A stretch of DNA of 64,000 bases from a virus. Both the position numbers and the translations under genes were made by a program. Each line of letters starts with the position of its first letter. The first letter of the stretch is position 1. Positions 789 to 41,475 of the stretch are shown here, in pieces. The stretch is taken from the IMG/VR virus record IMGVR_UViG_3300021964_000036, positions 18,492-82,491 of that record. One strand, given 5' to 3'. The notes beneath the pieces are model-generated. The model searched no databases. It was not told the DNA's origin and saw only the letters and a program-made list of their open reading frames with translations.

Positions 789-830
789 CAATTGTTTATA
801 ACTTCATTTTTTCCAAACGGTGGAAAATTG

Positions 831-838
831 TATATTTG
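831..838 (+). promoter_or_regulatory. Bacteroidota-type housekeeping sigma -7 element (TAnnTTTG), putative early promoter
   Basis: TATATTTG lies about 30 nt upstream of ATG 871. The same motif class occurs at 15188 and 22281. Confidence 0.55.
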
Positions 839-870
839 TTTCTCAACTACCTTTTAATCCTGAACCGCAA

Positions 871-1431
871 ATGGAAGAAACTTATATTGATCCCTCTAAT
901 TTTTTTAATGACGATAACCTTTCAAGGGGTAATTACTGGATTGCTAGTCCTGCTCTTAATAGGGTATTTTTATCGGAGGATAATTTCAATGAAATAAGCG
1001 AAACCTTTTATACCCTTAAGGATAGGAAGATGGACAGGGTCTATCTAGAAATGGCAAAGGTGTGGGCAACAAACTCATATTGTGAAAGAATGAAAGTTGG
1101 AAGTTTGATAGTCAAAGATAAGTCGATAATATCCGACGGCTACAACGGGGCACCAACTGGATTCCCAAACGTGTGTGAAGATGCTTCTCACGTTACGCTG
1201 CCTCATGTATTACACGCAGAGGCAAATGCTATTACTAAATTGGCTAAGAGTACGCAAAGTTCGGATGGGTCTACACTTTATGTTACCGTCTCTCCATGCT
1301 TCGAGTGTTCTAAACTGATAATCCAAAGTGGAATTAAAAGGTTAGTATTCCAGGAGTTATATAGAAAACTTGAATCGCTCAAATTTTTATTTGACGCTGG
1401 AATTGAACTCATTAGGTTAAATAATAAATAG
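871..1431 (+). CDS. dCMP deaminase
   Basis: HAEANAI and SPCFEC zinc-deaminase motifs, GYNGAP. Start moved from GTG 820 to ATG 871 because the promoter element lies at 831. Confidence 0.92.
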   Translation: MEETYIDPSNFFNDDNLSRGNYWIASPALNRVFLSEDNFNEISETFYTLKDRKMDRVYLEMAKVWATNSYCERMKVGSLIVKDKSIISDGYNGAPTGFPNVCEDASHVTLPHVLHAEANAITKLAKSTQSSDGSTLYVTVSPCFECSKLIIQSGIKRLVFQELYRKLESLKFLFDAGIELIRLNNK

Positions 1432-1465
1432 GAGGTAAAAGGAAATTACTAGGGGAATCAAAAAA

Positions 1466-2083
1466 ATGGCAAAAGAAAAAAACATACAAATTCTAGCTGA
1501 AAGCTTCATTCAGACTAGAGGAGAGAGGGAATTCAAGTACCTCTACGAAAGAGTAAAACCAGGGGTATTAAATCATTGTTACGGTATTTTGAAAGACTTT
1601 GAGCTAGCGGAGGATGCTTTCCTTAATGCTATGTCGAAGGTCTGGCAAAAGATAGAACAATATGATAGCGAGAGAGGGAATTTTTCTACGTGGTGTTACA
1701 ACATTGCTAGAAATGAATCTCTACTTTTGCTAAAAAGCAGAAAAAGATATATTTCTCAATCTTCTGAAGAGATGGAATACACTTCTGCAAAGGCAGAAGA
1801 AAAGAACAGATCATATGACATTGAAGACGATCCTCTTTGGGATTTCCTTTCGGGAGGTAGCGATATAGATGATGTATATGAGCAAGTAATAGACGAAATT
1901 AAGGAACTTCCGGATATCTATCGTGATATAATGATCGATCGTGAAATAAATGGTATGAAATACAAAGATATTGCTATTAAATACGATATAAAGAAGAGAT
2001 CAATTGCTACAAGAATTAGAAGAGCTCGTACTAAGATCAGAAAGAAGATGGAGGATGCTATGGGTAAATCTGATTTCAAATAA
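1466..2083 (+). CDS. ECF-type RNA polymerase sigma factor
   Basis: Region 2 AEDAFLNAMSKVWQKIEQYD..RGNFSTWCYNIARN; region 4 LPDIYRDIM..REINGMKYKDIA....SIATRIRRAR. Confidence 0.92.
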   Translation: MAKEKNIQILAESFIQTRGEREFKYLYERVKPGVLNHCYGILKDFELAEDAFLNAMSKVWQKIEQYDSERGNFSTWCYNIARNESLLLLKSRKRYISQSSEEMEYTSAKAEEKNRSYDIEDDPLWDFLSGGSDIDDVYEQVIDEIKELPDIYRDIMIDREINGMKYKDIAIKYDIKKRSIATRIRRARTKIRKKMEDAMGKSDFK

Positions 2084-2548
2084 ATGATGGGAAGAATTCT
2101 AGCTATTTTTAGGTTATTAAAAATTCTTAAGGAATTAAGGGTTTATTACCAATACAGGATTTCTGTATATGACGAGAGCATTAATTCCCCCATCTGGACA
2201 AGGTTAAGACTCAGGAAGGATTGGTTAAGAAGAATTTATACGGTAGTAAACTTACCTCCTGAGGTTACTATGTCACGTGAATTTCCCGTAGATGCTAGAC
2301 CTGCTTATGTGTTCGAAGAACTTAAGCCCGTAAACGACTATCTCACTAAACTTAATCTGCAGGAGGTTCTTACCCCAGTTCTTAAACCTATACCAGAGAC
2401 TAATGGGGATTCTTATTTAGTTATCTATTATTTCTTTTTTAGGTACCTTTCATGGATATGGATATTTAGATTTATAACAGAGGTAACACTGGTTACTTTA
2501 TGTGTGTTGAACTGGAATGCAATTATAACTTACTTAGGAATTGTTTGA
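2084..2548 (+). CDS. hypothetical membrane protein
   Basis: Abuts the sigma gene; hydrophobic C-terminus. Confidence 0.65.
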   Translation: MMGRILAIFRLLKILKELRVYYQYRISVYDESINSPIWTRLRLRKDWLRRIYTVVNLPPEVTMSREFPVDARPAYVFEELKPVNDYLTKLNLQEVLTPVLKPIPETNGDSYLVIYYFFFRYLSWIWIFRFITEVTLVTLCVLNWNAIITYLGIV

Positions 2549-3347
2549 TTTAGAAAATACAAGGAAGGATTACCAGAAGAAGCTAGATATTTTCAAAGAC
2601 TCGAAGTTTATTTTCAACGAATCTGCTCACACGTATCATTTCGAGGGTATTAAGTATGATTCTGTAACAACATATCTAAAAAAATTCAAAGTTCCCTTTG
2701 ATCGTGAATATTGGTCTAATCGTAAAGCTGAAGAAAGGGGAGTAGATGTTTCGGTTATTAAAGCAGAGTGGCAGGGTAAAGCTGATGTTGCTAATGCTCT
2801 TGGAACTAAAGTACATAAGTGGATTGAAGATTATTGGATGGGATTAGATCCTGAAATGCCAGAGGATCCTGAGGTAAGGAGTAGGGTTGAAAAGTTTATA
2901 TCTCTTAAGGAAGAAAGATTTGGAGAACTTGTTCCTCTTGAATCTGAGCTTAAAGTATTTTCTAATAAATGGAGGCTTGCAGGAACCGTTGACCAACCTT
3001 TCTTAATGTGGGATAAAAAGGAGAAAAAGCTTTTATTCCTTATTGGTGACTGGAAGACAAATAAGGAATTTAAGGACGATAAACACCCTAAGGGTAGGTT
3101 TAAAAAACTTTTACACCCATTTGCGGATCTTTATGAGAACTCACATAATGAGTATTCGATTCAAATCAGCTTATACAGACTTATTATTGAAGAGGAAACG
3201 GGATTAGAGACCCATGGTGGTTTTTTATGTCACATTGGTCCCCAGGAAAAACCTAAGTTATATCCCGTTAAGGATTTGAGGGAAAGGTTAAAGGTATATT
3301 TACAACATAATCGTGAAGATTTTGATGTTTTCAATATCTCTGAATGA
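2541..3347 (+). CDS. PD-(D/E)XK nuclease (phage exonuclease/Cas4-like)
   Basis: SVTT, GTKVH, SE..V, LAGTVD, DWKT and YxxQxxLY motifs. Confidence 0.8.
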   Translation: MFDLENTRKDYQKKLDIFKDSKFIFNESAHTYHFEGIKYDSVTTYLKKFKVPFDREYWSNRKAEERGVDVSVIKAEWQGKADVANALGTKVHKWIEDYWMGLDPEMPEDPEVRSRVEKFISLKEERFGELVPLESELKVFSNKWRLAGTVDQPFLMWDKKEKKLLFLIGDWKTNKEFKDDKHPKGRFKKLLHPFADLYENSHNEYSIQISLYRLIIEEETGLETHGGFLCHIGPQEKPKLYPVKDLRERLKVYLQHNREDFDVFNISE

Positions 3348-3372
3348 AACAATATCGTTTATTAAACTAAAA
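3346..3372 (+). promoter_or_regulatory. putative phage ECF-sigma (middle) promoter
   Basis: GAAAC-N16-CTAAAA; the motif recurs at 9378, 16564, 21343, 35935 and 39943. Confidence 0.6.
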
Positions 3373-3388
3373 AATAAAAAGCAATCAA

Positions 3389-3904
3389 ATGGCAAACAAA
3401 AAGACACAAGGAAAGATGGTAGAGCTTGATGCAAGTGAACTAGTTGATCCAATCGGAGAAGAAGCTCTTTCTAGACTAAACGAAGGTAGAATTAAGGCAG
3501 CAGAGGAAAATCTTGAAAATGCAAAGAAAAGGGTTTCTACCAAAGTATATGCAATTCAGTTTGAATCTATGGACCATATTAACAAATTTGTTGATTTCAT
3601 GGAAAATGAAGCTTCCTGGAAAGAAAAAGAATCCCTGGGTGTTATAGAAATTTGTAAAGTATTGGATAATCTCAAATCTGATGGAATAAAGAACAATATA
3701 CTTTACTTACAAGCTTTGCCTTTGGAGGCAAGTCACTACTTCATCTCAAAACAAAGTGGTAAAGGATTAAAGGAGGCGAAAGAATTTATTTCTCTCTTAA
3801 AGCCTTTTGAGCAAGGATTAGAATCTGCTAAAGCAGATGCCCAAGAAATCCAGGACCTTGAAAGAGAACTCGCAGCAGCTCAGCAGGGCATTGAAATAGC
3901 CTAA
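3389..3904 (+). CDS. hypothetical protein (coiled-coil ends)
   Basis: ATG with A-rich leader, bounded by a promoter and a terminator. Confidence 0.7.
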   Translation: MANKKTQGKMVELDASELVDPIGEEALSRLNEGRIKAAEENLENAKKRVSTKVYAIQFESMDHINKFVDFMENEASWKEKESLGVIEICKVLDNLKSDGIKNNILYLQALPLEASHYFISKQSGKGLKEAKEFISLLKPFEQGLESAKADAQEIQDLERELAAAQQGIEIA

Positions 3905-3928
3905 AAAGGCACAAAACCATTCGAAATG

Positions 3929-3960
3929 AATAGGCTCCATTTGTTTGGGGCCTATTTTTT
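3929..3960 (+). terminator. intrinsic terminator
   Basis: AATAGGCTCCA-loop-TGGGGCCTATT followed by a T run. Confidence 0.85.
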
Positions 3961-3981
3961 AGTGTATATGGAATAAGGTTA

Positions 3982-3989
3982 GATATATA
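3982..3989 (+). promoter_or_regulatory. putative late promoter GATATATA
   Basis: Recurrent 8-mer resembling the T4 late promoter TATAAATA, about 25 nt before ATG 4014. Confidence 0.65.
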
Positions 3990-4013
3990 GTAAAACTAAA
4001 ATTGTAAATAATC

Positions 4014-4307
4014 ATGGTACAAAAAATTAAAGATAACTTTCAATTCATCGTTTTAGGGTTTTTAGTGATTGTCTTTTTCAGACAATGTGGAGTAAATCGC
4101 GATATAGATAGAATTGAAAAGGAGCTTAAAGCTTCTAACGCTGAGCTTAACACTAAATTAGATTCAATCAATACACTAACTAAGGCTGAAATTAGGCACG
4201 AGATGAATCAGGTAATGTTCCAATTCCTTATTTATGAAGATGACTTTGATAAGAAAAGGATTTCTCTGTCTGAGATAAAAAACAAATTAGAAGCAAGTGA
4301 AGAGTAA
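4014..4307 (+). CDS. membrane-anchored or lipoprotein-like coiled-coil protein (spanin-like candidate)
   Basis: N-terminal hydrophobic segment ending RQCG, then a coiled coil. Confidence 0.5.
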   Translation: MVQKIKDNFQFIVLGFLVIVFFRQCGVNRDIDRIEKELKASNAELNTKLDSINTLTKAEIRHEMNQVMFQFLIYEDDFDKKRISLSEIKNKLEASEE

Positions 4308-5091
4308 ATCAAAACTCGTTAATGGCTTTATCATAACCACCTTCGTTTCTTTGTATTTGATGGTGTCTGTGATATCTACCATTCACGTTATTGACTTTTT
4401 TAAACTATCCAACCCCACGTGGTTGGCAATTTCTTTGGCAATAGCTTTTGAGGTTGGTGCTGCAGCATCTCTTGCCTCTTTAATTGTAATGGAAAAAATG
4501 AACAAATCCCTTGTTTGGTTCCTATTTATTCTGTTGACCGCAATGCAAGCCATGGGGAACACATACTATGCATTCGTTAATCTGGGTGACTATACTTCTT
4601 GGTCTGAATTATTTGGATTGATAGAGGAGGAAGAGATATTCCAAAAGAGGATACTCTCAATTGTATCTGGTGCTATTCTTCCTATAGTAGCATTAGGGTT
4701 TATTAAATCACTTGTCGATTATATTAAACCAGATAGCGAGGAAAAACTTCAAAACGAAGATTCTGGTATCGAAATGGAGGATGCTGTAGATCTTGGTGAT
4801 GATATAAGCGAGCCTTTAATCTATGATTCCTCTTATGAAATGAGCAACATTCCTGGTGGAAAAATGGAATTAGAAAATAGCTTAAATGAAAACGACGAAA
4901 TTGTTGAGGATTTTTACGGGTCAGAGTCTATTGTTACAGCAGAAACATCAGGATCTGAAAAAAATGAAGAGACCATAAAACCAATTGCAGATAGCAATGT
5001 TGAGATAGTAAATGCAAACGCAAACAAGAGGATTAGACCAAAAGTTGTTGCTATGCCAGAAAATCCTGACATAAACCCCACTAGACTTTAA
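4297..5091 (+). CDS. multi-pass membrane protein with acidic C-terminal tail
   Basis: Four hydrophobic segments in the first ~140 aa. Confidence 0.65.
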   Translation: MKSKSKLVNGFIITTFVSLYLMVSVISTIHVIDFFKLSNPTWLAISLAIAFEVGAAASLASLIVMEKMNKSLVWFLFILLTAMQAMGNTYYAFVNLGDYTSWSELFGLIEEEEIFQKRILSIVSGAILPIVALGFIKSLVDYIKPDSEEKLQNEDSGIEMEDAVDLGDDISEPLIYDSSYEMSNIPGGKMELENSLNENDEIVEDFYGSESIVTAETSGSEKNEETIKPIADSNVEIVNANANKRIRPKVVAMPENPDINPTRL

Positions 5092-5092
5092 T

Positions 5093-5767
5093 ATGAGCGC
5101 AAACATAGGTGATAACTTGGAGATTTTCGGTGGAGGATCTAGTGTAGGTGGCACAGGATCAGGTACTCCTTTTGGCTATGGCGACAGCAATAGTGCATTG
5201 ACTACTGGACAATCCGGTCCGTTTGACACCAAGTATACCCTAATTGCTAACACCCCTGGTTCTTTGAAGAGGGTAAATCTTACTTTCTCAAATTATAATG
5301 ATCCACACGAGGTAAGAATATTCCAAACCTCTATGAATGTTACATATCAAGCAGACATAGAAGAAAAGCTTGACCTTTCCGAATATTTTCACCCACTACA
5401 GTCTTTTTCTGGTTACCAGAAACAAACTTTTGTAATATCACCGGATTCTTCAATTAACCTTGATCCTGGTGATTATGATACCACTTTGGGAGAAGTGAGC
5501 TTACTACTTGCTAGAGCAAGGTATTATGCAGATGCTGAGGAGGATCAAAGGCTTTTATACTGGCATTATAATAGCGGATTAAGATACGTTATGTCAGATG
5601 TGATGATGCTAACCGGACAAGTTAAACCTGATGCTTCTTGGAAAGGATGGCAAACTTTGCCTGATTTAGAAGATCAGGTTGGATATACAGGAGCAGCTAC
5701 TGGTGGATTTGTATTTTCAAATCCAACTGAATATCCAGTTAAGCTAACAATATTAACAGCAAGCTAA
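5093..5767 (+). CDS. hypothetical (probably virion) protein, paralog of 5767..6312
   Basis: Shares YW.Y...(M/L)M.LTG and GG..FSNP...VKL.I motifs with the next gene. Confidence 0.65.
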   Translation: MSANIGDNLEIFGGGSSVGGTGSGTPFGYGDSNSALTTGQSGPFDTKYTLIANTPGSLKRVNLTFSNYNDPHEVRIFQTSMNVTYQADIEEKLDLSEYFHPLQSFSGYQKQTFVISPDSSINLDPGDYDTTLGEVSLLLARARYYADAEEDQRLLYWHYNSGLRYVMSDVMMLTGQVKPDASWKGWQTLPDLEDQVGYTGAATGGFVFSNPTEYPVKLTILTAS

Positions 5768-6312
5768 TGGCAACCAGACCTATCATATGTCCTCCACAAC
5801 CTATAGATGGATTCCTTTTTAGAAAGGACAAATTCGTGCTTGAGGAAGATTACAACATAACAAATTTCATAGATTTTAGTGATCTCCAGGATGAAGTTAT
5901 ATCATATTCAAGACTTAGAGTAACACTTAAAAGAAATAAAAGTGTAAAGATAAGCCAAACAGACATAGGTGATGAAAATGGATTCGTCAAATGGATAGCA
6001 GTGAAGGTTAAGTATCCTGCACCAAAAGACCCGGTTCTTTTTGGGTCCCAGACACCAATTATACCTGGTGTTCCAACTCCTACCAATGGAACTCCACAGG
6101 TGAAGAAATATATTTATTGGACATATAGGAATAATACCTATAATGTAGGAGAATTAATGATTTTAACCGGTGGAAAGCTAGGTTCCACTGATTCTGAAAA
6201 AACTGGATGGAATCTAAGTGAGGATTTTTTACCTTATGAGGATGGAGGAATCACATTCAGCAACCCACACACCGACATTGACGTAAAGCTTGAAATTATT
6301 ATAGCGAGATAA
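5767..6312 (+). CDS. hypothetical (probably virion) protein, paralog of 5093..5767
   Basis: Shared C-terminal motifs; stop/start overlap with the upstream gene. Confidence 0.65.
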   Translation: MATRPIICPPQPIDGFLFRKDKFVLEEDYNITNFIDFSDLQDEVISYSRLRVTLKRNKSVKISQTDIGDENGFVKWIAVKVKYPAPKDPVLFGSQTPIIPGVPTPTNGTPQVKKYIYWTYRNNTYNVGELMILTGGKLGSTDSEKTGWNLSEDFLPYEDGGITFSNPHTDIDVKLEIIIAR

Positions 6313-6374
6313 TTTTTCCAAAAAACCTGGATTGGTTGGAATATATAATGGAAAAGTTTCAATATCGCAGGTGT

Positions 6375-6382
6375 GATATATA
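6375..6382 (+). promoter_or_regulatory. putative late promoter GATATATA
   Basis: About 25 nt before ATG 6406. Confidence 0.65.
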
Positions 6383-6405
6383 AAAAGCAAAAAAACACAA
6401 GTAGA

Positions 6406-9198
6406 ATGGACTTACTTAATCAATTAAAAACTCTTAGGGAAACAACCACTAATCCTGAGGTTAAATCGATTTGCGAATCCCACATTAATAAAATACAAAA
6501 TGGGGAATCTGTAAATGAATCCGCAATCCTTGAATCTGTTGACCAGGTAGTAAAGGAAAGCGAAGGCGAAACCGCTGCAAACCCTATCGAAATGCTAAGA
6601 CAGCAAGAAATAGAAAGATCTAAATCAGCAGCTCAAAGGCTAATGGAGTCTTGGGGTGGAATTGGATCTAATTCTTCTAGAAATTCAGGATCTTATGTAG
6701 ATGGTAAGAAAGAAGATACTGCGGAGGTTACTAATATTTCAGAGAGTCTTAAAGAGGTAGCAGAAAAGGATCCTTCAGCTAAAGCATTCCTCGATTCACA
6801 GGCAGTTAACAACCTTGGCGTTTATGAGTCTATTCTATCTTTAAAAGGAACAGGTATTTATGAACATCCAAATGTTAAGATACTTTGTGAAAAGTTCACT
6901 CACCTTCTAAAGAATAATAATACCCCTGAATTTTTATTAGCAGAGGCATTTGTCCAAGAACTACAAAACTTCAACTGGGATAACAAAGTAAAAGCTGCTG
7001 TAGAAGCAATTAAGGAAAATATTGCTTCACTTAGACCTGAAATTGAGGTTTCAAAAGCTTTATATTCTATCGAAAAGAACGCTGGTTCTGATTTTTATTC
7101 GCCAGTAACAGAATCTCTGAATAAGTGGTTGATATCAGAGAATAAGTCCGTTGCACTTTTGTCCAAAGAGATCTCAAGATGGTCTTTCAACCCAACGGTA
7201 AGAAATCTTGTGAATACGCTTTCTCTAATGGAATCTTCAGAGTCTAAGCTAAGTATTCCTGTAAACAACGGAAATTCTTCGGTGAGGAAAGTTTATTCTC
7301 CAGTTCATGTTGCTGGTGGCAAAACTGTATTTACTATTGGTAACAACGTATTTGAAGGTAACTCTGAGGGAATCAAGAGACTTTCAAATGTTGAATATGC
7401 TTCTCTACCAGAAGAGTTTAGATCTTTGCTAGAGTCATTCTATTCTCCGATGGTTAAGATAAATGAGAGTGGTTTAAGTTTCTATGTTGGAAACAGCAGC
7501 TTTAAGATAGTGGAAGAGTCTGATTCGGTATCAATATATTCTAGGGATAATAAGATTAACTTTAGTGACAAAACTCAGCTGGCTAAGCAGATAGCTCTAG
7601 AAATATCTGGAAGCTTAGGAGTTAACGAATCAAAAGCGGTTTCTGACATAATTAACCTTTATGAAAACTTCTCAAATGTTGTTGAACTTGATTTTGCTAA
7701 AAGATTAGAGTCTAAAGTTTTCGAAGGTGTAGCAGTAAACTTGATTAAATGGAACTCAAACCTTTACCTCAACAGGATCAATGAAGGTATGAATGAGAAT
7801 TCCTTATTCCAAGTAAACGGTACACAAGCTACTTCGATGGTTAAGGATCTGATGAAATATGATATTTCTGAAGGACTAACGGAGTTCTTGGATGGAGAGA
7901 ACAGGATTAAGTCAATTATGCTTAATGACAGAAAGCAAATTATTGATAACATCGCTATCGTTGAAAACGAGATTAACAAAATCTCACAAGCAATGTCTAC
8001 AAACCCACTTTATGAAAATTCTAAAGAAATGGTAAGAGCTAAGCATATGCTTGAGCAAGAACTATCTTCTCTTAGAAAAAAATGGGCAGCAGTTAATGAA
8101 GAGATCGAAAAAATAGAATCTTCTTCTGTTGAGGTAGAAGAGATAAACGAGGATCAGAAATTCAATGTTGGTGATTACGTAAAAGTTAAAGAGTCTGGAA
8201 ATACTGGAAAGATTATTTCTATGGATAGCACATCTGGATCTTACACTGTTTTGATGGATAATGGAAGAACCGGTGATTTCAGAATGGATGAGATTGTTGA
8301 TATTGAAGAAGCTTTAAAATCTGCTGGTGAAGAAAATCAGGAAGCTGATGAAACCCAGGAAGATGTTAAAGAGAACGAATCACCAATTGAAACTTCTGAG
8401 GAAATTCTAGAGGATACTTTAGAAGAGTCTTCTCATGATATGGCAGTAGCTCCAGAGAACAAAACAGCATCTGAAAAGGATAAAACTCCAGCCGCTACAT
8501 TAAAAGCAAATACCTCTGAGGCACCTTCGTCTAAAGATCAAGACGAAGATGGTAAAAAGGACATTGAAAAGGAAGATCATGCTAATTTGGAAGAAGCACC
8601 TGAAGGAATTGAGAAAGGGACTGATTATAGTGTCAAGCTTAAAGACTCTTTGGTAGATGAGGTCGGATATAACGTAAACGAAAATACCGAAGAAGTTGAG
8701 TCGGCTGACAACGAAATGTCTTCAGCACCTGCGGAAGGAAATTCAGAGTTATCTGAAAGAGACGTTGAAAACACAGATCAGCAATTAGCTGAAGCCCCAG
8801 GCGGAAGATCTCATGCTGATTATGATGTAAAATCTGTTAAAGGTGAAGAGTCAAACCCAGATATGGTAAAAACAGACCCAGATATGGCATCTGCTCCTGG
8901 TGACGGTACAGATAAAGAATTACACCACGAAATTAGTGGAGAGATGGGATATAACCTTGATGAAGCGGATGACGTGGAAAAAACAGACCAGCAATTAGCA
9001 GTTGCTCCTGGTGGTGAGCACAAAGCAGAATATGATGTTGAAGTAGCTAAGGCAGAAAAAGCAGCAGCTGATATCATGAAAACCAACCAGGAATTAGCAG
9101 AAGCACCAGCAGCTGGCACTGATGCTGAAACAGATGTAGAGGTTAACACAGAAATGGGATATAACCTTGACGAAAGCGAAGAGTCAAAAAAAAACTAA
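6406..9198 (+). CDS. large acidic late protein, probable prohead core/head-associated protein with KOW/SH3-like domain and acidic repeats; possible frameshift extension to 9374
   Basis: Many (V/I/L)xES sites, KOW-like FNVGDYVKVKESGNTGKI, coiled coil. Start set at ATG 6406, after the late promoter. Confidence 0.6.
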   Translation: MDLLNQLKTLRETTTNPEVKSICESHINKIQNGESVNESAILESVDQVVKESEGETAANPIEMLRQQEIERSKSAAQRLMESWGGIGSNSSRNSGSYVDGKKEDTAEVTNISESLKEVAEKDPSAKAFLDSQAVNNLGVYESILSLKGTGIYEHPNVKILCEKFTHLLKNNNTPEFLLAEAFVQELQNFNWDNKVKAAVEAIKENIASLRPEIEVSKALYSIEKNAGSDFYSPVTESLNKWLISENKSVALLSKEISRWSFNPTVRNLVNTLSLMESSESKLSIPVNNGNSSVRKVYSPVHVAGGKTVFTIGNNVFEGNSEGIKRLSNVEYASLPEEFRSLLESFYSPMVKINESGLSFYVGNSSFKIVEESDSVSIYSRDNKINFSDKTQLAKQIALEISGSLGVNESKAVSDIINLYENFSNVVELDFAKRLESKVFEGVAVNLIKWNSNLYLNRINEGMNENSLFQVNGTQATSMVKDLMKYDISEGLTEFLDGENRIKSIMLNDRKQIIDNIAIVENEINKISQAMSTNPLYENSKEMVRAKHMLEQELSSLRKKWAAVNEEIEKIESSSVEVEEINEDQKFNVGDYVKVKESGNTGKIISMDSTSGSYTVLMDNGRTGDFRMDEIVDIEEALKSAGEENQEADETQEDVKENESPIETSEEILEDTLEESSHDMAVAPENKTASEKDKTPAATLKANTSEAPSSKDQDEDGKKDIEKEDHANLEEAPEGIEKGTDYSVKLKDSLVDEVGYNVNENTEEVESADNEMSSAPAEGNSELSERDVENTDQQLAEAPGGRSHADYDVKSVKGEESNPDMVKTDPDMASAPGDGTDKELHHEISGEMGYNLDEADDVEKTDQQLAVAPGGEHKAEYDVEVAKAEKAAADIMKTNQELAEAPAAGTDAETDVEVNTEMGYNLDESEESKKN
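8761..9180 (+). repeat. 2 x 210 bp (70 aa) degenerate intragenic duplication
   Basis: DVE.TDQQLA.APGG...EMGYNLDE occurs twice; the GA(G/A)ATGGGATATAACCTTGA copies start at 8941 and 9151. Confidence 0.8.
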
Positions 9199-9374
9199 GA
9201 AAAATACTTAGTAAAGTTTGGGCTTTTGCTCCTACTGGAGAGGAACAATCTGAATCACCAGAGCCTTTCGTTGATAATATCAAAGACAAAATGAGCGTCG
9301 CCCCAGATGGAAAAGAACCTACTGGGGACACGCTCATTTCTTCTGAAGATGGGACCGAAGAGGATAAGGTTTAG
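9186..9374 (+). other. A9C slippery site plus 59-codon -1 frame extension and downstream stem-loop
   Basis: A AAA AAC immediately before TAA. The -1 frame reads LRKILSKVWAFAPTGEEQ...MSVAPDGKEP...EEDKV* and keeps the xAP repeat style. Hairpin at 9289-9339. Confidence 0.65.
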
Positions 9375-9377
9375 ACC

Positions 9378-9405
9378 GAAACTAACCTCGAGGTTTAAAC
9401 TAAAA
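9378..9405 (+). promoter_or_regulatory. putative phage ECF-sigma promoter upstream of the late sigma gene
   Basis: GAAAC-N17-CTAAAA. Confidence 0.65.
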
Positions 9406-9425
9406 ATAATACAAGTGTAAAGGTT

Positions 9426-9785
9426 ATGGCAAAGGCTTACGTAAGAAATAAAGATCTGATGGCTGCAGTATTAGAGTCAAAAGAAAAAGGAGAACTTACT
9501 TCAGAGACTATAGAGATGTTTGGTCTTATGGTTCAGGGTATATCTAAAAAGATGGCATATAGGGATCCCGAAGACAAAGCTGATTGTATGGCTTTTGCAA
9601 TGGAGGATCTTTGCAAATATTGGAATAGATTCAATCCAGAAAAATCAAACAATCCGTTTGCTTACTATACACAAATAGCAAAAAATGGGTTTGCTAAGGG
9701 GTGGAAAAAAATACATCCTCCGAAGGCACCTAAAACAATACCATTTTCATATATCACTGGAGACGACAATACGTATAATGTGTAA
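9426..9785 (+). CDS. gp55: T4 gp55-like late-transcription sigma factor
   Basis: YVRNKDL at the N-terminus and FNPEKSNNPFAYYTQIAKN, typical of gp55. Confidence 0.85.
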   Translation: MAKAYVRNKDLMAAVLESKEKGELTSETIEMFGLMVQGISKKMAYRDPEDKADCMAFAMEDLCKYWNRFNPEKSNNPFAYYTQIAKNGFAKGWKKIHPPKAPKTIPFSYITGDDNTYNV

Positions 9786-10273: not shown

Positions 10274-10875
10274 AATCCTTTGAAGATCAAATAAAGGATC
10301 TAAGGTCCCAATATTCGTCAATAGCACAACTATCCTCTGAATCCAACACTTACTTCAAAAAAAGGTATGGACCTGGAGGTGAAGGAGGGACTTTGGATTT
10401 TAATGGAAATTTTATACCTGGTAAGATCTATACTTGTGAATATAAAACAAAAACAAGAATATCCGATAAAACCCCTTTTATAGACAGATCTCCGATATTC
10501 ATCTTTATGAAGAAGGAGAGATATAAGGGTTCCGAAATTCTAATATCTGTTGATCTAAATGTTATTCCACCTGATTATAGGGGAAATATTATGTTTAAAC
10601 TATGGGATCAGTACTCCTCATTATTTAAAGACAACTCTAAATTACCATACACATCTCAAATACCTATTACTAACATAACAACTTCTTTTAATAGATTACT
10701 TGCTGGAACTGGGTTTCAAACAGCGTTAACTGGATTCAAAAGGGAATATGCTGATAATATTAAGGTAGTTGACTATAAAGATTGGGTAAGAATTCCATAC
10801 CTTTCTGATTTTATAATAGAGGGTCAATCTACTAACGGGATATATAATGATTATAGATCGAAATTAAATGCTTAA
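10270..10875 (+). CDS. gp2: DNA end protector-like protein (T4 gp2-like)
   Basis: PGKIY...Y..K....PF.D..P...LN.IP motifs; located between gp4 and the portal. Confidence 0.6.
   Translation: MKSFEDQIKDLRSQYSSIAQLSSESNTYFKKRYGPGGEGGTLDFNGNFIPGKIYTCEYKTKTRISDKTPFIDRSPIFIFMKKERYKGSEILISVDLNVIPPDYRGNIMFKLWDQYSSLFKDNSKLPYTSQIPITNITTSFNRLLAGTGFQTALTGFKREYADNIKVVDYKDWVRIPYLSDFIIEGQSTNGIYNDYRSKLNA
10839..10846 (+). promoter_or_regulatory. putative late promoter GATATATA for the portal genes
   Basis: Within the 3' end of the upstream gene, about 65 nt before ATG 10910. Confidence 0.55.
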
Positions 10876-10909
10876 CATTTAGTACAAAAACTAGATTACA
10901 AAATTGTAA

Positions 10910-15160: not shown

Positions 15161-15187
15161 TTATTTTTTTAGTACGTTCCATTTAGT

Positions 15188-15195
15188 TATATTTG
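15188..15195 (+). promoter_or_regulatory. Bacteroidota-type -7 element (TAnnTTTG)
   Basis: TATATTTG 17 nt before the ligase ATG. Confidence 0.55.
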
Positions 15196-16563: not shown

Positions 16564-16591
16564 GAAACTTAAGGCTCTTTTTTCTGTACAA
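16564..16591 (+). promoter_or_regulatory. putative phage ECF-sigma promoter
   Basis: GAAAC-N17-GTACAA before the clamp loader gene. Confidence 0.5.
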
Positions 16592-20264: not shown

Positions 20265-20272
20265 GATATATA
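20265..20272 (+). promoter_or_regulatory. putative late promoter in a hairpin loop
   Basis: GATATATA flanked by TAAGCT and AGCTTA. Confidence 0.6.
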
Positions 20273-20860: not shown

Positions 20861-21343
20861 TTGAGGTATATTAAAACCATAAACGAATTTTTTGATACTG
20901 GGGTATTTGGCGATACCTATGGATATGGTGGTGCTAATGGTATCTTCAAGGTCCAATATAAACCATATAAAGACCTTTCTGTGTCAGTGGGACCAGATCC
21001 TAATCAAAAAAGAACGGTAAGAGGTTCCCAGTTTCAGGTTGGTGATATTGTGATCGGGGTTCCAGTAGATTCAAAGGAAAAGGTAGCAGGAATGATAGTT
21101 CGTACTGAAAGAACCCCCGATAACAAGTCATATAAGTATTTTGCACAAGTGCATTCTAAGGGGAAGGATACTGAGGAAGTTTTAGAGCTAATTCCAGATA
21201 CCGTGGAATTTGCAGATAATGGTGATAAAGGTCATAAGCAAATTATATCTCATTTCAAGCTAGATACTATGCCTTCGGGTGTTTATAATTCACCAACAGT
21301 TTATAATAATACCAAACTTGGTATAGAAGCAATAGGAAGTTAG
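20861..21343 (+). CDS. putative head-internal protein with capsid-targeting-like leader and SH3/KOW-like domain
   Basis: N-terminus MRYIKTINEF; FQVGDIV; GATAAATA at 20834. Confidence 0.55.
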   Translation: MRYIKTINEFFDTGVFGDTYGYGGANGIFKVQYKPYKDLSVSVGPDPNQKRTVRGSQFQVGDIVIGVPVDSKEKVAGMIVRTERTPDNKSYKYFAQVHSKGKDTEEVLELIPDTVEFADNGDKGHKQIISHFKLDTMPSGVYNSPTVYNNTKLGIEAIGS

Positions 21344-21370
21344 AAACTTTCACCTCTTTGCCTGCTAAAA
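21343..21370 (+). promoter_or_regulatory. putative phage ECF-sigma promoter
   Basis: GAAAC-N17-CTAAAA. Confidence 0.6.
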
Positions 21371-22256: not shown

Positions 22257-22280
22257 TTTTTATTCAACGGCCTCTTTCCT

Positions 22281-22288
22281 TAGTTTTG
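22281..22288 (+). promoter_or_regulatory. Bacteroidota-type -7 element (TAnnTTTG)
   Basis: TAGTTTTG 14 nt before ATG 22303. Confidence 0.5.
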
Positions 22289-23818: not shown

Positions 23819-23859
23819 GGGATTGTTTGGATATATAAAGTCCAAATAATCCCTTTTTT
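23819..23859 (+). terminator. intrinsic terminator with late promoter GATATATA (23830-23837) at its loop
   Basis: GGGATTGTTTGGA / TCCAAATAATCCC stem plus T6, directly followed by the GTG start at 23860. Confidence 0.8.
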
Positions 23860-24651
23860 GTGGGCGCAGTTTTAGATTTTAGTAGATTTGTTTTAAACGA
23901 GGATAAGATTGGTTCTTTCTATAACGATGAACTAAATCCAAAGTTCTGGGACAAATACAAAAACAAGAATGGTGAAACCCAATGGGTCTTTGATAGGCTA
24001 GTAAGAAAAAAGTTGCTTAAGATAGCCGAAGACTTTTACGAAAAATATAGCGATCTATTAGGAGATCTTCCGATTGAGGATATACAACTCACTGGATCAT
24101 TAGCTAATTTTAACTATACTGATAAGTCGGATCTTGACGTTCATGTGCTCGTTGACTTCAATAAGGTAAAGTCAAAACCAGAAATGGTAAAAGCAGCAGT
24201 TGATGGAATTAGGTTTGTTTGGAATCTAAGACATGACGTTGTTATCAGAAATCATGATGTTGAGCTTTATCTCCAGAACATACACGAGCCACATACAGCT
24301 TCTGGTCTTTATTCTCTACTTAATGATAAGTGGATAAGAAAACCAAAGTTTGATCCGCCAGAGGTAGACGAACAAGATGTAAGAAAGAAGTTTGATGGAT
24401 TAGCATCTGAAATTAACCAAATGGAATCCAAACTTGTTACTTCTTCATCCCTTCCCAAGGATGCAAAGGAGATGTATAAAAGGCTTATTCGGTTAAAAGA
24501 AAAGATACAGAAAATGAGAAAAGACGGACTTTCCAAGGACGGAGAATTCTCGATAGGTAACCTCGCCTTCAAAATGCTGAGAAATGAGGGATATATAAGT
24601 AAGCTCATAGATTTAATTTCAAAAGCTTACGCTAGAATTTACTCGGAGTAA
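23860..24651 (+). CDS. Pol-beta superfamily nucleotidyltransferase with capsid-targeting-like leader
   Basis: LTGSLANFNYT.KSDLDVH (hG[GS]..DxD), third acid in DVELY; leader VLDFSRFVLNE. Confidence 0.8.
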   Translation: MGAVLDFSRFVLNEDKIGSFYNDELNPKFWDKYKNKNGETQWVFDRLVRKKLLKIAEDFYEKYSDLLGDLPIEDIQLTGSLANFNYTDKSDLDVHVLVDFNKVKSKPEMVKAAVDGIRFVWNLRHDVVIRNHDVELYLQNIHEPHTASGLYSLLNDKWIRKPKFDPPEVDEQDVRKKFDGLASEINQMESKLVTSSSLPKDAKEMYKRLIRLKEKIQKMRKDGLSKDGEFSIGNLAFKMLRNEGYISKLIDLISKAYARIYSE

Positions 24652-24668
24652 AAACTTTAATTGAAAAT

Positions 24669-27362: not shown

Positions 27363-27393
27363 AAAAACGTCAAATTTTCTGAAAAAGAAAATC

Positions 27394-27406
27394 GATATAT
27401 AAAGTT
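27394..27406 (+). promoter_or_regulatory. putative late promoter GATATATA(AAGTT)
   Basis: Upstream of the protease gene; an identical 13-mer occurs at 28051. Confidence 0.7.
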
Positions 27407-27427
27407 AAATAATAGTAAAGTCAAGAA

Positions 27428-29434: not shown

Positions 29435-29459
29435 AAAACCTAAAAAAAATTAGTAAAAA

Positions 29460-31181
29460 ATGAAACTAATCAACGAAGCAGAAATCTTCGAAACCTGGTC
29501 TCCTATCATCGAGCAGAAGGCTGGAATTCAAGATGCTGAGAAAAAAGGATGGTTGAGCAAGTACTGCCACTACCATTCATTAAACGAGTCTGCTGGTGCA
29601 TATCAGTCACTAGCAACTGTAAACGGTATGGGTGCCGTAGCTCCACCCGCATACCCAGGTGGGTATAACTCCACTGGTTCTGCAGTAGGTACGCAAGCAA
29701 ACGCTGCTTTCTACAACGCTGCTAACCAAGGTTCAGGAGATAAGTTTCCTTCACTTCTTCCTTTGGCAATTCAGGTTGCTGCGAAGACAGTTGGATTCGA
29801 TATCGTTCCTGTAATTCCTATGTCAGGTCCTACTGGCGTACTTTCTTACCTAGATTACGTATACTCAGGTGGTAAAATCAGTCCTGCATCTGCTGGCGCA
29901 TCTGCTGCTGAAGCCCTTGCAACTGCACCTTCTATGATCAAGGTAGAATTGACAAACGCTGCAGCAGGATATCCTGGTAACTTTGCAGTAGGTACTACTT
30001 ACTACATCACTAACGCTTCTTCAGCTGGTGCTTACATCACAACTGAATTTGTTGGTCTTTCTAGAATCGATGGTTTCCCAATCTTCAGAATCGTTGGATT
30101 AACAGCTGGTGAAACTGTTTCTGCAGTTCTTGATGGCGGTGCTACTAAAATTGGTACTGCAGTAGATGGAAACCAAGCTGGTACTACAACTGCAAGAGCA
30201 GAATTGGTTAAAGCTCTTGAGGATCACATCCAAGGATTCTCTGGTGCTGGTTTTAACAACGACCAAGACTGGCAAGGACCATTCGTAGATGGTACTAAGA
30301 CTTACAACCCAATGCTAAGAGGTGTAGGTGAAAGCACTTACTACCAATCAATGGGTCTATCAACGTTCACTAAGTTCGTTGAAGCTGATACTTTCCAAGT
30401 AGCTGCTTCAGTAACTACTGAACAGATCCAAGACCTTAACAAGCAATTCGGTATCGACGTAATTTCTATGATCGAGAACGCATTGGTTAATGAGGTATCT
30501 CAAGCTATTAACAAGCACATCCTATCTAGAGCATTCGCTCTTGGTTGGTCTAACCACGATGAATTCTTGACTACAGAAGGTCAGAACTTGAACCTAAACC
30601 TCGTTATCGGTGGTACTGCTGGTTCATACACTATTCCTTCTTACGTAGGTAAGTCTGACACTGGTATCTCTATCGCTTCTGTTGCAGGTCCTGCTTCAGG
30701 TGGATACGAGAACTTGTCAACTCTACAGAGAAGACTATTCTCTAGAATTCTAGCTGGTGCTAACGTAGTAGCTAACAGAGGAAGAAGAGGTCCTGCTAAC
30801 TTCATCGTTACTAACGCTAACGTTGCAAGTGCATTGCAAGACATCTCTCAGTTCACTTTTGCACCTTTCTCTAACACACTAACTCAAAACAACGGTACAC
30901 TTTACCCAGTAGGTTCGCTTGCAGGTATGACTGTTTATGTTGATCAGAACATGAAGTTCGGTGATAACAGAGTATTAGTTGGTAGAAAAGGTGGTGACGA
31001 CGAACCAGGACTTAAGTTCATGCCTTACATGATGGCTGAGTCTATCCAAACAATCTCTGAGGGTACTATGTCACCTAAGATTGCGGTTAAGTCTCGTTAC
31101 GCTCTAGTAGAAGCTGGTTTCCACCCAGAAACTATGTACTTCTGTTTCCACGTGAACGTTCCTGCTGGAGGTCTATCCTAA
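29460..31181 (+). CDS. gp23: major capsid protein (T4 gp23-like)
   Basis: V.PMSGPTG, T.EQIQDL..QFGID, L.NE....INK, RRG.ANF, G..FMPY, PKIAVKSRY. Confidence 0.95.
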   Translation: MKLINEAEIFETWSPIIEQKAGIQDAEKKGWLSKYCHYHSLNESAGAYQSLATVNGMGAVAPPAYPGGYNSTGSAVGTQANAAFYNAANQGSGDKFPSLLPLAIQVAAKTVGFDIVPVIPMSGPTGVLSYLDYVYSGGKISPASAGASAAEALATAPSMIKVELTNAAAGYPGNFAVGTTYYITNASSAGAYITTEFVGLSRIDGFPIFRIVGLTAGETVSAVLDGGATKIGTAVDGNQAGTTTARAELVKALEDHIQGFSGAGFNNDQDWQGPFVDGTKTYNPMLRGVGESTYYQSMGLSTFTKFVEADTFQVAASVTTEQIQDLNKQFGIDVISMIENALVNEVSQAINKHILSRAFALGWSNHDEFLTTEGQNLNLNLVIGGTAGSYTIPSYVGKSDTGISIASVAGPASGGYENLSTLQRRLFSRILAGANVVANRGRRGPANFIVTNANVASALQDISQFTFAPFSNTLTQNNGTLYPVGSLAGMTVYVDQNMKFGDNRVLVGRKGGDDEPGLKFMPYMMAESIQTISEGTMSPKIAVKSRYALVEAGFHPETMYFCFHVNVPAGGLS

Positions 31182-31206
31182 TCAGTAGTTAGTACACACT
31201 AATATT

Positions 31207-31236
31207 AAACCCCAGGTTTTTGCCTGGGGTTTTTTT
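31207..31236 (+). terminator. intrinsic terminator after the capsid gene
   Basis: AAACCCCAGG-loop-CCTGGGGTTT plus T run. Confidence 0.9.
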
Positions 31237-31246
31237 GTGATCTGTT

Positions 31247-31254
31247 GATATATA
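31247..31254 (+). promoter_or_regulatory. putative late promoter GATATATA
   Basis: Just after the terminator, before ATG 31277. Confidence 0.65.
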
Positions 31255-35934: not shown

Positions 35935-35962
35935 GAAACTTATTTCTTATTGCTCCCTATAA
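35935..35962 (+). promoter_or_regulatory. putative phage ECF-sigma promoter
   Basis: GAAAC-N17-CTATAA. Confidence 0.6.
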
Positions 35963-38808: not shown

Positions 38809-38837
38809 TGGAGCGATATATAAAGAAAAACGCTCCA
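38809..38837 (+). promoter_or_regulatory. late promoter GATATATA inside a hairpin abutting the start codon
   Basis: TGGAGCG / CGCTCCA stem; ATG at 38840. Confidence 0.65.
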
Positions 38838-39925: not shown

Positions 39926-39958
39926 AAAGACAAGTTTCTTTTGAAACTTGTCTTTTTT
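39926..39958 (+). terminator. intrinsic terminator overlapping an ECF promoter -35 element
   Basis: AAAGACAAGTTTC-TTTT-GAAACTTGTCTTT plus T run. Confidence 0.85.
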
Positions 39959-39969
39959 GTTTGCTATAA
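39943..39969 (+). promoter_or_regulatory. putative phage ECF-sigma promoter
   Basis: GAAAC-N16-CTATAA. Confidence 0.55.
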
Positions 39970-41467: not shown

Positions 41468-41475
41468 GATATATA
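41468..41475 (+). promoter_or_regulatory. putative late promoter GATATATA
   Basis: Intergenic, before ATG 41500. Confidence 0.65.

What the first reader, a model, noticed from the sequence alone, without database searches (positions are those of the whole stretch)
831..9785. Three-tier sigma cascade readable in the DNA: host sigma, then phage ECF sigma, then gp55-like late sigma
Seen: three distinct upstream motifs. (a) TAnnTTTG at 831, 15188 and 22281; the first precedes the dCMP deaminase-ECF sigma operon. (b) GAAAC-N16/17-(C/G)TA(A/T/C)AA at 3346, 9378, 16564, 21343, 35935 and 39943, before replication, repair and sugar genes and directly before the gp55-like gene. (c) GATATATA at 3982, 6375, 10839, 20265, 23830, 24590, 27394, 28051, 31247, 38815, 41468, 54817 and 58193, mostly before structural genes. 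Known: TAnnTTTG is the Bacteroidota housekeeping -7 element, ECF -35 boxes contain AAC, T4 gp55 reads TATAAATA, and T4 middle genes use MotA/AsiA rather than a sigma. Inference: this T4-like phage uses an SPO1-style sigma relay for middle transcription and has a changed late consensus.
Basis: partly seen in the sequence, partly recalled or inferred. Interest (0 to 1): 0.8.

Follow-up and report, generated by a model that had tools for sequence, protein, structure and literature searches.

The report
Three promoter classes, phage sigma relay
A fragment of an uncultured giant phage of Bacteroidota carries three conserved promoter types wired so that a host-type promoter drives a phage ECF sigma gene, an ECF-type promoter drives a small T4 gp55-like sigma gene, and a GATATATA box precedes the virion genes.

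Summary

GATATATA occurs 18 times on the + strand and 0 times on the - strand of the 82.5-kb contig, against 3.1±1.9 in shuffles. The GAAAC-N16/17-(C/G)TA(A/T/C)AA pattern occurs 8 times on + and 0 on -, against 0.7 in shuffles. Bare TAnnTTTG is not enriched (48/40, against 48 in shuffles).

All three classes are conserved in place in IMG/VR relatives:
- The host-type box lies before the dcd-ECF sigma operon in 38 of 52 distinct relatives.
- The ECF-type promoter lies before the gp55-like gene in 42 of 50.
- The late box lies before structural genes in 9/12 to 51/51.

The relay wiring is therefore supported in silico. Which sigma reads which motif is inferred; no expression data could be found.

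Three qualifications apply:
- The contig is about 29% of a jumbo genome.
- A complete 373-kb relative also encodes a third, RpoD-like sigma behind a host-type promoter.
- The gp55-like protein is a conserved 119-aa version that lacks the C-terminal third of T4 gp55.

I rate this a new variant of known phage sigma cascades, of moderate interest. The scan had already noted this stretch once (e1-6128435).

The parts
807..838 (+). Class a promoter (T-tract, CG, N11, TATATTTG) before the dcd-ECF sigma operon
   Evidence: A TAnnTTTG box lies upstream of dcd in 38 of 52 distinct relatives (25 with CG-N11). It lies 560-700 nt before the ECF start in 52 of 65.
871..1431 (+). dCMP deaminase gene. The true start is probably ATG 871, not GTG 820.
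   Evidence: Pfam dCMP_cyt_deam_1 1e-23; start position; found upstream of the ECF sigma gene in 132 loci.
1466..2083 (+). Phage ECF-type sigma factor, 205 aa
   Evidence: Sigma70_r2 1.2e-13 and r4_2 7.4e-10. TIGR02937 67.9 bits against cut-off 42.9; the best subfamily, TIGR02985 (Bacteroides expansion), is below its cut-off. Matches SigW structure 5wuq at 6e-9. 207 relatives in IMG/VR.
2084..2548 (+). Conserved membrane-anchored protein of 154 aa directly after the sigma gene; an anti-sigma role is only a guess
   Evidence: No family hit. Conserved after the ECF gene in relatives at 140-160 aa, with a hydrophobic C-terminus.
3346..3372 (+). Class b promoter before 3389-3904 (unknown function)
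   Evidence: b-type motif in 22 of 28 distinct orthologous upstream regions.
3982..3989 (+). Class c (late) box, 32 nt before 4014, following a terminator-like hairpin
   Evidence: 30 of 30 distinct relatives; alignment.
6340..6382 (+). Two tandem late boxes (AATATATA at 6340, GATATATA at 6375) before the 930-aa gene, which starts at ATG 6406
   Evidence: late box in 51 of 51 distinct relatives.
9378..9405 (+). Class b promoter 48 nt before the gp55-like gene; its spacer holds the 12-bp palindrome AACCTCGAGGTT (9384-9395)
   Evidence: b motif in 42 of 50 distinct relatives, with no a box and no c box in any of the 50.
9426..9785 (+). gp55-like mini sigma, 119 aa
   Evidence: phrog_234 1.2e-13. 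Aligns to residues 10-123 of the 185 of T4 gp55 (7d7c_F, E 4e-4). All 45 distinct family members are 119 aa and share the conserved tail TIPFSYITGxDNxYN.
10839..10888 (+). Late box (10839) followed by a conserved b-like element (CGAAAT at 10859 … GTACAA) before portal gene A
   Evidence: c box in 42 of 42 and b-like element in 34 of 42 distinct relatives.
15164..15195 (+). Class a promoter before the DNA ligase gene (15213)
   Evidence: TAnnTTTG in 28 of 36 distinct relatives, 26 of them with CG-N11; ligase identified by Pfam.
16564..16591 (+). Class b promoter before the clamp-loader (gp44-like) operon; a hairpin at 16573-16602 overlaps it
   Evidence: b motif in 31 of 37 distinct relatives; AAA / DNA_pol3_delta2 domains.
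20265..20272 (+). Late box before 20300
   Evidence: 9 of 12 distinct relatives.
21343..21370 (+). Class b promoter before the UvdE-like endonuclease gene (21375)
   Evidence: Pfam UvdE 1e-12.
22257..22288 (+). Class a promoter (TAGTTTTG) before the glycosylase and 3'-5' exonuclease genes
Evidence: exonuclease phrog_25228.
23830..31254 (+). Late boxes at 23830, 24590, 27394, 28051 (inside the protease-scaffold gene) and 31247, before the head genes (protease 27428, major capsid protein 29460)
   Evidence: phrog_207 protease and phrog_138 major head protein.
35935..35962 (+). Class b promoter before 35982 and the operon that includes asparagine synthase
   Evidence: Pfam Asn_synthase 1e-39.
38815..38822 (+). 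Late box 25 nt before ATG 38840
39943..39969 (+). Class b promoter before 39988 (unknown function)
41468..58200 (+). Late boxes at 41468, 43356 (inside a gene), 54817 and 58193, within the long tail/baseplate gene run
   Evidence: Most genes here have no family hit.

Best explanation
The window is part of a jumbo, T4-related phage of a Bacteroidota host. It times its genes with a relay of sigma factors.

Step 1 (inferred). Host RNA polymerase with the host housekeeping sigma starts at class a promoters: a TAnnTTTG -7 box with a T-tract and a CG upstream. These drive DNA ligase, repair genes and the dCMP deaminase-ECF sigma operon.

Step 2 (inferred). The phage ECF sigma directs host core polymerase to class b promoters: -35 GAAAC, a 16-17 nt gap, then -10 cTAnAA. 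These drive clamp-loader, repair and metabolic operons and the gp55-like gene.

Step 3 (inferred). The 119-aa gp55-like protein directs core polymerase to a single -10-type box, GATATATA. That box sits about 30 nt before the start codons of head, neck, tail and packaging genes.

What is shown here: the motifs, their strand bias, their positions, their conservation, the identities of the genes, and which promoter class precedes which sigma gene.

What is not shown: which protein reads which motif, and the timing.
For: Statistics on the contig:
- Class c is 18 on + and 0 on -, against 3.1 in shuffles. Class b is 8/0 against 0.7.

Family-wide strand bias:
- 532/2 for class c and 214/3 for class b.

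Anchored profiles:
- Class c carries no information upstream of the box, as T4 late promoters do (PMC7892883, passages read).
- Class b has two elements. The last position of its -10 carries no information, unlike a group-1 -10 box.
- The -35 GAAAC matches the tgaAAC of B. subtilis ECF promoters (PMC5758882, passages read).

Wiring conserved in relatives:
- Class a before dcd-ECF in 38 of 52 and 52 of 65.
- Class b before gp55-like in 42 of 50, with 0 a boxes and 0 c boxes.
- The same wiring holds in the complete 373-kb relative G004.

Functional split:
- Class c precedes sheath, terminase operon, portal, protease and major capsid protein.
- Class b precedes clamp loader, UvdE, Asn synthase and glycosyltransferases.
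- Class a precedes ligase, exonuclease and deaminase.

Host phylum:
- The TAnnTTTG box.
- GGAG in 1 and AGGA in 2 of 77 leader regions, with A-rich leaders. Bacteroidetes lack Shine-Dalgarno sequences (PMC6847099, passages read).
- The nearest named relatives are Prevotella Lak, Tenacibaculum, Flavobacterium and Chryseobacterium phages.

Link between ECF sigma and class b:
- Tenacibaculum phage PTm1 has no Sigma70_r2 match and no class b enrichment (1/0 against control 5/1). G004 has the ECF sigma and scores 13/2 against control 3/1.
Against: - There is no transcript or biochemical evidence. No RNA run was listed.
- The contig is only about 29% of the genome.
- Complete relatives carry a third, RpoD/RpoS-like sigma. 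It could read class a or class b promoters.
- The class b -10 (cTAnAA) is not the CGT-type -10 of well-studied ECF sigmas.
- The ECF operon is not preceded by its own class b promoter, unlike most ECF sigmas (3 of 52).
- The portal gene carries both a c box and a b-like box.
- The gp55-like protein lacks T4 residues 124-185. No sliding clamp was detected with the Pfam gp45 models (no positive control), and gp33 was not searched for.
- I saw no clear co-variation between ECF sigma clade and the -35 pentamer.
- The more distant phage LR756500 has an ECF homologue (31% identity) but no class b enrichment.
- The PTm1 contrast is a single genome.
Confidence: 0.55

Rival explanations
1. The relay has a fourth player. 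A phage RpoD-like sigma, seen in complete relatives, reads the class a promoters or the class b promoters. In that case the host sigma or the ECF sigma has a narrower job than proposed, for example only the first minutes of infection or only a few genes.
For: - G004 (373,485 bp, terminal repeats, 100% complete) has three Sigma70_r2 genes, one in a 298-aa RpoD/RpoS-like protein.
- A 42-43% identical copy is present in two other large contigs.
- Class a carries a conserved T-tract and a CG at fixed spacing, which are not part of the published host consensus.
- The more distant phage LR756500 has five Sigma70_r2-like genes.
Against: - The RpoD-like gene itself lies behind a class a promoter, so some other holoenzyme must read class a first.
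- TAnnTTTG is the signature of the Bacteroidota housekeeping sigma, and F. johnsoniae promoters also show AT-rich elements upstream of it (PMC6847099, passages read).
- The class b -10 lacks a conserved last T, which argues against a group-1 sigma.
- Whether this lineage has the gene is unknown: the 39%-complete close relatives show only two sigma genes.
Confidence: 0.25
2. Class b promoters are read by a host sigma (a host ECF or the housekeeping sigma) with a phage activator. The phage ECF sigma instead reprograms host genes.
For: - The best subfamily matches of the ECF sigma are Bacteroidota families (TIGR02985, NF058625), which suggests host origin.
- No direct link between the protein and the motif was shown.
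Against: - The sigma gene and the class b motif co-occur across the whole family.
- The motif is absent from PTm1, which lacks the sigma.
- No MotA or AsiA domain was found (no positive control).
Confidence: 0.1
3. GATATATA is not a promoter but an RNA processing, translation or packaging signal.
For: - It lies at a fixed distance of about 30 nt from start codons.
- Earlier notes say it often sits in hairpins (e1-6128449, not tested here).
Against: - It follows terminator-like hairpins and opens operons.
- It is an AT-rich 8-mer resembling the T4 late box, with no partner element.
- It co-occurs with a gp55 homologue.
- Variants GATAAATA and TATAAATA replace it in relatives.
- Two copies lie well inside genes (28051, 43356), far from the next start codon.
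Confidence: 0.05

Closest known systems
Bacillus phage SPO1 sigma cascade (host sigma A, then gp28, then gp33/34)
   Same: A relay in which each tier's promoter drives the next tier's phage sigma gene, all using host core polymerase. PMC13401047 (abstract as listed in the search) states that SPO1 switches from host sigma A to phage sigma factors. The gene numbers are recalled.
   Different: - The late factor here is a T4 gp55 homologue and the middle factor is an ECF-type sigma.
- The host is Bacteroidota.
- Relatives have a further RpoD-like sigma.
Phage T4 late transcription (gp55, gp33, gp45 clamp; late box TATAAATA, recalled)
   Same: - A gp55 homologue.
- A single -10-type 8-bp AT-rich box with no -35 element (PMC7892883).
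- Virion genes lie downstream.
   Different: - The box is GATATATA; the T4 box shows no strand bias here (105/101).
- The protein is 119 aa and lacks T4 residues 124-185.
- The gp45 Pfam models found nothing; gp33 was not searched for.
- The middle mode is not MotA/AsiA.
ECF sigma promoters of B. subtilis (sigma W/M/X/V: tgaAAC … CGTA or CGTC; PMC5758882)
   Same: - -35 GAAAC.
- Two-element architecture with a 16-17 nt gap.
- The sigma has regions 2 and 4 only.
   Different: - The -10 is cTAnAA, not CGTA.
- There is no autoregulatory promoter (3 of 52).
- It is phage-encoded and driven by a host-type promoter.
Bacteroidota housekeeping promoters (-33 TTTG, -7 TAnnTTTG; F. johnsoniae TAHHTTTG with AT-rich elements at -18 and -28; PMC6847099)
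   Same: - The -7 box is present at all three class a sites.
- There is AT-rich sequence near -18 and a T-tract near -30 to -37.
   Different: - There is no TTTG at 19-21 nt.
- A conserved CG sits exactly 11 nt upstream of the box.
- One site has G at -10 (TAGTTTTG).
Group 2 (T4-like) jumbo phages that encode both a minimal sigma and a fuller sigma (PMC7824862, passages read); 'moraphages', aquatic Bacteroidota jumbo phages with a core sigma gene (PMC12619734, passages read)
   Same: T4-like jumbo phages that carry more than one sigma gene, with Bacteroidota hosts predicted.
   Different: In the passages I read, those papers list the genes only, with no promoter classes or wiring. I did not test whether this contig is a moraphage.
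phiEco32-type coliphages with an ECF-family sigma
   Same: A phage-encoded ECF-like sigma that redirects host polymerase. This is recalled; PMC4281155 appeared in a search listing but I did not read it.
   Different: Those are podoviruses without gp55, and one phage sigma serves both middle and late genes.

Membership tests
ECF (group 4) sigma-70 family | Regions 2 and 4 only, about 200 aa, passes the family model | tested here: met
   Pfam r2 and r4_2, 205 aa; TIGR02937 at 67.9 bits against cut-off 42.9.
ECF (group 4) sigma-70 family | Membership of a named subfamily (TIGR02985 Bacteroides expansion; NF058625) | tested here: not met
   82.4 bits against cut-off 126.4, and 72.3 against 130.
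ECF (group 4) sigma-70 family | Co-transcribed anti-sigma factor | tested here: inconclusive
   A conserved 140-160 aa membrane-anchored protein follows the sigma gene in relatives, but it matches no family.
ECF (group 4) sigma-70 family | Autoregulation from its own promoter type | tested here: not met
   Upstream of the operon, a class a box is in 38 of 52 distinct relatives and a class b motif in 3 of 52. The GAAAC-like site at 775 is not conserved.
T4 gp55 late sigma family | Homology to the gp55 sigma region-2-like core | tested here: met
   phrog_234 1.2e-13; 7d7c_F gp55 E 4e-4, query residues 5-106 aligned to T4 residues 10-123.
T4 gp55 late sigma family | C-terminal part of T4 gp55 (conserved segment 141-156 and linker; PMC2988020) | tested here: not met
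   The protein ends 13 residues after the aligned core. All 45 distinct homologues are 119 aa.
T4 gp55 late sigma family | Hydrophobic-acidic C-terminal sliding-clamp epitope | tested here: inconclusive
   The conserved tail TIPFSYITGxDNxYN is hydrophobic then acidic. No binding evidence exists.
T4 gp55 late sigma family | Promoter made of one -10-type box with no -35 element | tested here: met
   The anchored profile of 268 distinct sites shows information only in G-ATATATA.
T4 gp55 late sigma family | Partner proteins gp33 and gp45 | tested here: inconclusive
   Pfam gp45 models found nothing in G000 or in the complete G004, but nothing rang in controls either. gp33 was not searched. A clamp loader is present.
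Bacteroidota housekeeping promoter | -7 box TAnnTTTG | tested here: met
   Present at three sites. Conserved before dcd (38/52) and before ligase (28/36).
Bacteroidota housekeeping promoter | -33 TTTG at 19-21 nt | tested here: not met
   TTTG-N18-22-TAnnTTTG is 2 on + and 5 on - in the contig, against 1.6 in shuffles. The class a sites have a T-tract and a CG instead.
Phage sigma cascade (SPO1 type) | Each tier's promoter drives the next tier's sigma gene | tested here: met
   Class a before ECF and class b before gp55-like, conserved in relatives and in G004.
Phage sigma cascade (SPO1 type) | Sequential expression, and dependence of each class on its sigma | not testable with these tools
   No RNA holder was listed.
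T4 MotA/AsiA middle mode | AsiA and MotA genes present | tested here: not met
   PF09010 and PF09158 found nothing in G000 or G004. There was no positive control, and G000 is a fragment.

The most novel reading that the evidence does not exclude
A whole lineage of Bacteroidota jumbo phages (hundreds of IMG/VR contigs, with Lak megaphages as distant kin) may run its programme on its own set of three or more sigma factors.

In this reading, an ECF sigma paired with a tail-anchored membrane anti-sigma gates the early-to-middle switch. A 119-aa minimal gp55 has lost the clamp-coupling domains, so late transcription is no longer tied to DNA replication as it is in T4.
Probability: 0.2. Interest if true: 0.75.

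Novelty: new variant of a known kind. Interest (0 to 1): 0.55.

Why it matters
Nothing is known from experiment about how T4-related phages of Bacteroidota time their genes. Their hosts use an unusual housekeeping sigma and lack Shine-Dalgarno sites.

Here the regulatory circuit can be read from sequence and is conserved across hundreds of environmental contigs. It gives three defined promoter types and two small proteins that can be tested directly with Flavobacterium core polymerase or reporters.

It also supplies working late, middle and early promoter models for annotating uncultured jumbo phages.

It points to a hybrid between the SPO1 and T4 strategies. An ECF sigma stands in place of MotA/AsiA, and a shortened gp55 raises the question of whether clamp-coupled late transcription is universal in T4-like phages.

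Tried and rejected
- Close annotated relatives: megablast of 20 kb against the phage collection found none.
- Expression data: none was listed. No RNA holder was listed for window 700-10600.
- A GAAAC-N18-TATAAC site at 775 before dcd looked like ECF autoregulation. It is not conserved, so I rejected it.
- Co-variation between ECF clade and the -35 pentamer gave no clear signal.
- A fourth motif class was sought in 141 unclassified upstream regions of G004. I found only weak variants: AACTAAAA 8/0 and TATAAATA 7/0.
- In LR756500 and PTm1, GATATATA is not strand-biased. PTm1 upstream regions instead repeatedly show ATACATA, seen by eye only.
- The gp45, AsiA and MotA Pfam searches found nothing, but had no positive control.
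- Supplements of the cited papers were not opened. Promoter tables in them could bear on the host consensus.
- My own error: the dcd query was translated from 872 instead of 871, one base out of frame. I discard the dcd rows of those calls. One search repeats the analysis in the right frame. The ECF-anchored counts were not affected.
- One pattern (TT[TG]-N17-23-TAnnTTTG) over-counted through overlapping matches and is ignored.
- Literature searches that found no description of this circuit or of the GATATATA box.


Full report
What the DNA is.
The window is bases 18492-82491 of a single 82,491-bp virus record. CheckV rates that record about 29% complete. Nearly all genes are on the + strand.

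Family searches show T4-type core genes:
- two portal paralogues, a gp4-like and a gp2-like gene, a clamp loader and DNA ligase;
- prohead protease and major capsid protein;
- tail sheath and large terminase, upstream of the window.

The nearest named relatives by capsid and gp55-like protein are Prevotella Lak megaphages, huge uncultured phages (LR756500 and others), Tenacibaculum PTm1/PTm5, Flavobacterium MaF61 and Chryseobacterium MA9V. All of these are phages of Bacteroidota.

IMG/VR holds 265 relatives of the gp55-like protein and 207 of the ECF sigma, usually on the same contigs. Close relatives of 106-107 kb are rated 39% complete. One relative, G004, is 373,485 bp with terminal repeats and is rated complete. 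The phage is therefore a jumbo phage and the window shows under a third of it.

The two sigma genes.
- 1466-2083 has Sigma70 region 2 and region 4_2. It passes the ECF superfamily model TIGR02937 (67.9 bits against 42.9). Its best subfamily matches are Bacteroidota families, below their cut-offs. It resembles SigW among solved structures.
- 9426-9785 matches PHROG 234, 'late sigma transcription factor', and T4 gp55 chain 7d7c_F (E 4e-4). The alignment covers T4 residues 10-123 of 185.
- All 45 distinct family homologues of the gp55-like protein are 119 aa and share a strongly conserved C-terminal tail. This is a genuine short form, not a truncation.

The motifs in this contig.

Class c (GATATATA):
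- It occurs 18 times on + and never on -, against 3.1±1.9 in 100 dinucleotide shuffles.
- It is the top 8-mer in upstream zones.
- Twelve of 18 copies lie 25-37 nt before a start codon, once two over-long ORF starts are corrected.

Class b:
- Every copy lies 32-73 nt before a start.

Class a:
- Bare TAnnTTTG is at chance level (48/40 against 48).
- The three quoted sites share a longer composite: T-tract, 4-5 nt, CG, exactly 11 nt, TAnnTTTG.
- They are the only intergenic + strand sites of this kind in the contig.

Conservation.
Across 159 partly overlapping related loci (2.45 Mb), strand counts are 532/2 for GATATATA, 214/3 for class b, 1428/1404 for TAnnTTTG and 105/101 for the T4 box TATAAATA.

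In 602 distinct intergenic regions, 201 hold only a late box, 95 only a class b motif and 2 hold both. Among the remaining 304, TATATTTG is in 43 and its reverse complement in 1. GATAAATA is in 30 and its reverse complement in 0.

Profiles anchored on the motifs show:
- no information upstream of the late box;
- two elements for class b, with no information at the sixth -10 position;
- the T-tract/CG composite for class a.

Footprints at orthologous genes, as distinct upstream sequences carrying the motif:
- class b before the gp55-like gene, 42 of 50, with no a or c box in any of the 50;
- class b before 3389, 22 of 28, and before the clamp loader, 31 of 37;
- late box before 4014, 30 of 30; before 6406, 51 of 51; before the portal, 42 of 42; before 20300, 9 of 12;
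- class a before ligase, 28 of 36; before dcd, 38 of 52; and 560-700 nt before the ECF start, 52 of 65.

One clade at about 73% ECF identity lacks the class a box there.

Wiring and function.
- Class a precedes the dcd-ECF operon, ligase, and a repair glycosylase plus 3'-5' exonuclease.
- Class b precedes the gp55-like gene, the clamp-loader operon, UvdE, an operon with asparagine synthase and, upstream of the window, a DUF6445/glycosyltransferase operon.
- Class c precedes sheath, the terminase operon, portal, protease and capsid, and the long tail gene run.

In the complete relative G004 the same wiring holds: class a before dcd-ECF, class b before gp55-like. About 40 class a promoters cluster in regions of small ORFs, as expected for early genes.

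Why the sigma assignments are plausible but unproven.
- T4 late promoters are a single -10-like element with nothing conserved at -35, read by gp55 (PMC7892883, passages). Class c has that architecture.
- ECF promoters of B. subtilis have -35 tgaAAC and a short -10 (PMC5758882, passages). Class b shares the -35 and the spacing, but has cTAnAA as its -10.
- The Bacteroidota housekeeping sigma reads TAnnTTTG. In F. johnsoniae the -33 element is weak, and AT-rich elements at -18 and -28 are more evident (PMC6847099, passages). Class a fits this, apart from its fixed CG.
- The leaders lack Shine-Dalgarno motifs: GGAG in 1 and AGGA in 2 of 77.
- PTm1 has no Sigma70_r2 match and no class b enrichment. 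G004 has both the sigma and the enrichment. That is one contrast only.

Complications.
- G004 has a third sigma, a 298-aa RpoD/RpoS-like protein, itself behind a class a promoter. Two other large contigs have 42-43% identical copies. LR756500 has five Sigma70_r2-like genes. Whether this lineage has such a gene cannot be told from a 29% fragment.
- The portal gene has both a late box and a conserved b-like element.
- The ECF operon is not autoregulated.
- The Pfam models for gp45, AsiA and MotA found nothing, but without positive controls. gp33 was not searched for.
- No RNA data could be found.

Literature.
Six searches found no description of this circuit or of a GATATATA late box.
- PMC7824862 (passages read) notes that T4-like jumbo phages encode a minimal sigma and a fuller sigma.
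- PMC12619734 (passages read) describes aquatic Bacteroidota 'moraphages' with a core sigma gene.
- Neither gives promoters in the passages I read. Supplements were not opened.

Verdict.
The scheme may lack a sigma. I rate it a new variant of known phage sigma cascades.

Noticed in passing
window 9384-9395: A perfect 12-bp palindrome, AACCTCGAGGTT, fills the spacer of the class b promoter of the gp55-like gene. Relatives keep it palindromic through paired changes, for example AACCCCGGGGTT. It could be an operator for a dimeric regulator of the late switch.
   Followed up: partly
window 2084-2548: A conserved 140-160 aa protein with a hydrophobic C-terminus directly follows the ECF sigma gene in most relatives, often overlapping its stop codon. 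It matches no family. An anti-sigma role is a guess.
   Followed up: partly
G004:C1:311094-311990 (- strand; L163 6094-6990): A complete 373-kb relative encodes a third sigma, a 298-aa RpoD/RpoS-like protein, behind a class a promoter. Copies at 42-43% identity lie in two other large contigs.
   Followed up: partly
window 10839-10888: Portal gene A has a late box followed 20 nt later by a strongly conserved TCGAAATTAA … (G/C)TAnAA element (34 of 42 relatives). This suggests two promoters of different classes.
   Followed up: partly
window 6340-6382: Two late boxes stand in tandem (AATATATA and GATATATA, 35 nt apart) before the 930-aa gene. Both are conserved in relatives.
   Followed up: partly
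window 16573-16602: A hairpin (GGCTCTTT…AAAGAGC) spans the -10 of the clamp-loader promoter and ends just before the start codon. Relatives keep the pairing with different sequences.
   Followed up: no
window 820, 6373, 38801: The longest-ORF starts are probably wrong. ATG 871, ATG 6406 and ATG 38840 place the promoters at the usual distance.
   Followed up: yes
window 10910-14141: Two full-length T4-type portal genes lie side by side (Pfam Portal_T4 2e-58 and 1e-63).
   Followed up: no
window 28051 and 43356: Two GATATATA boxes lie inside genes.
   Followed up: no
L162 (Tenacibaculum phage PTm1, AP019524.1 174681-224680): Upstream regions of PTm1 head and neck genes repeatedly show ATACATA (for example GATACATATACAAAAGG). 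Several small genes show TATATTTG boxes. This may be a different late box in a related Bacteroidota phage. It was seen by eye only and not counted.
   Followed up: no
related loci, intergenic regions: GATAAATA (30 distinct regions, against 0 for its reverse complement) and, in G004, TATAAATA (7 against 0) replace GATATATA at some genes. The family's late box is closer to (G/T)ATA(T/A)ATA.
   Followed up: partly
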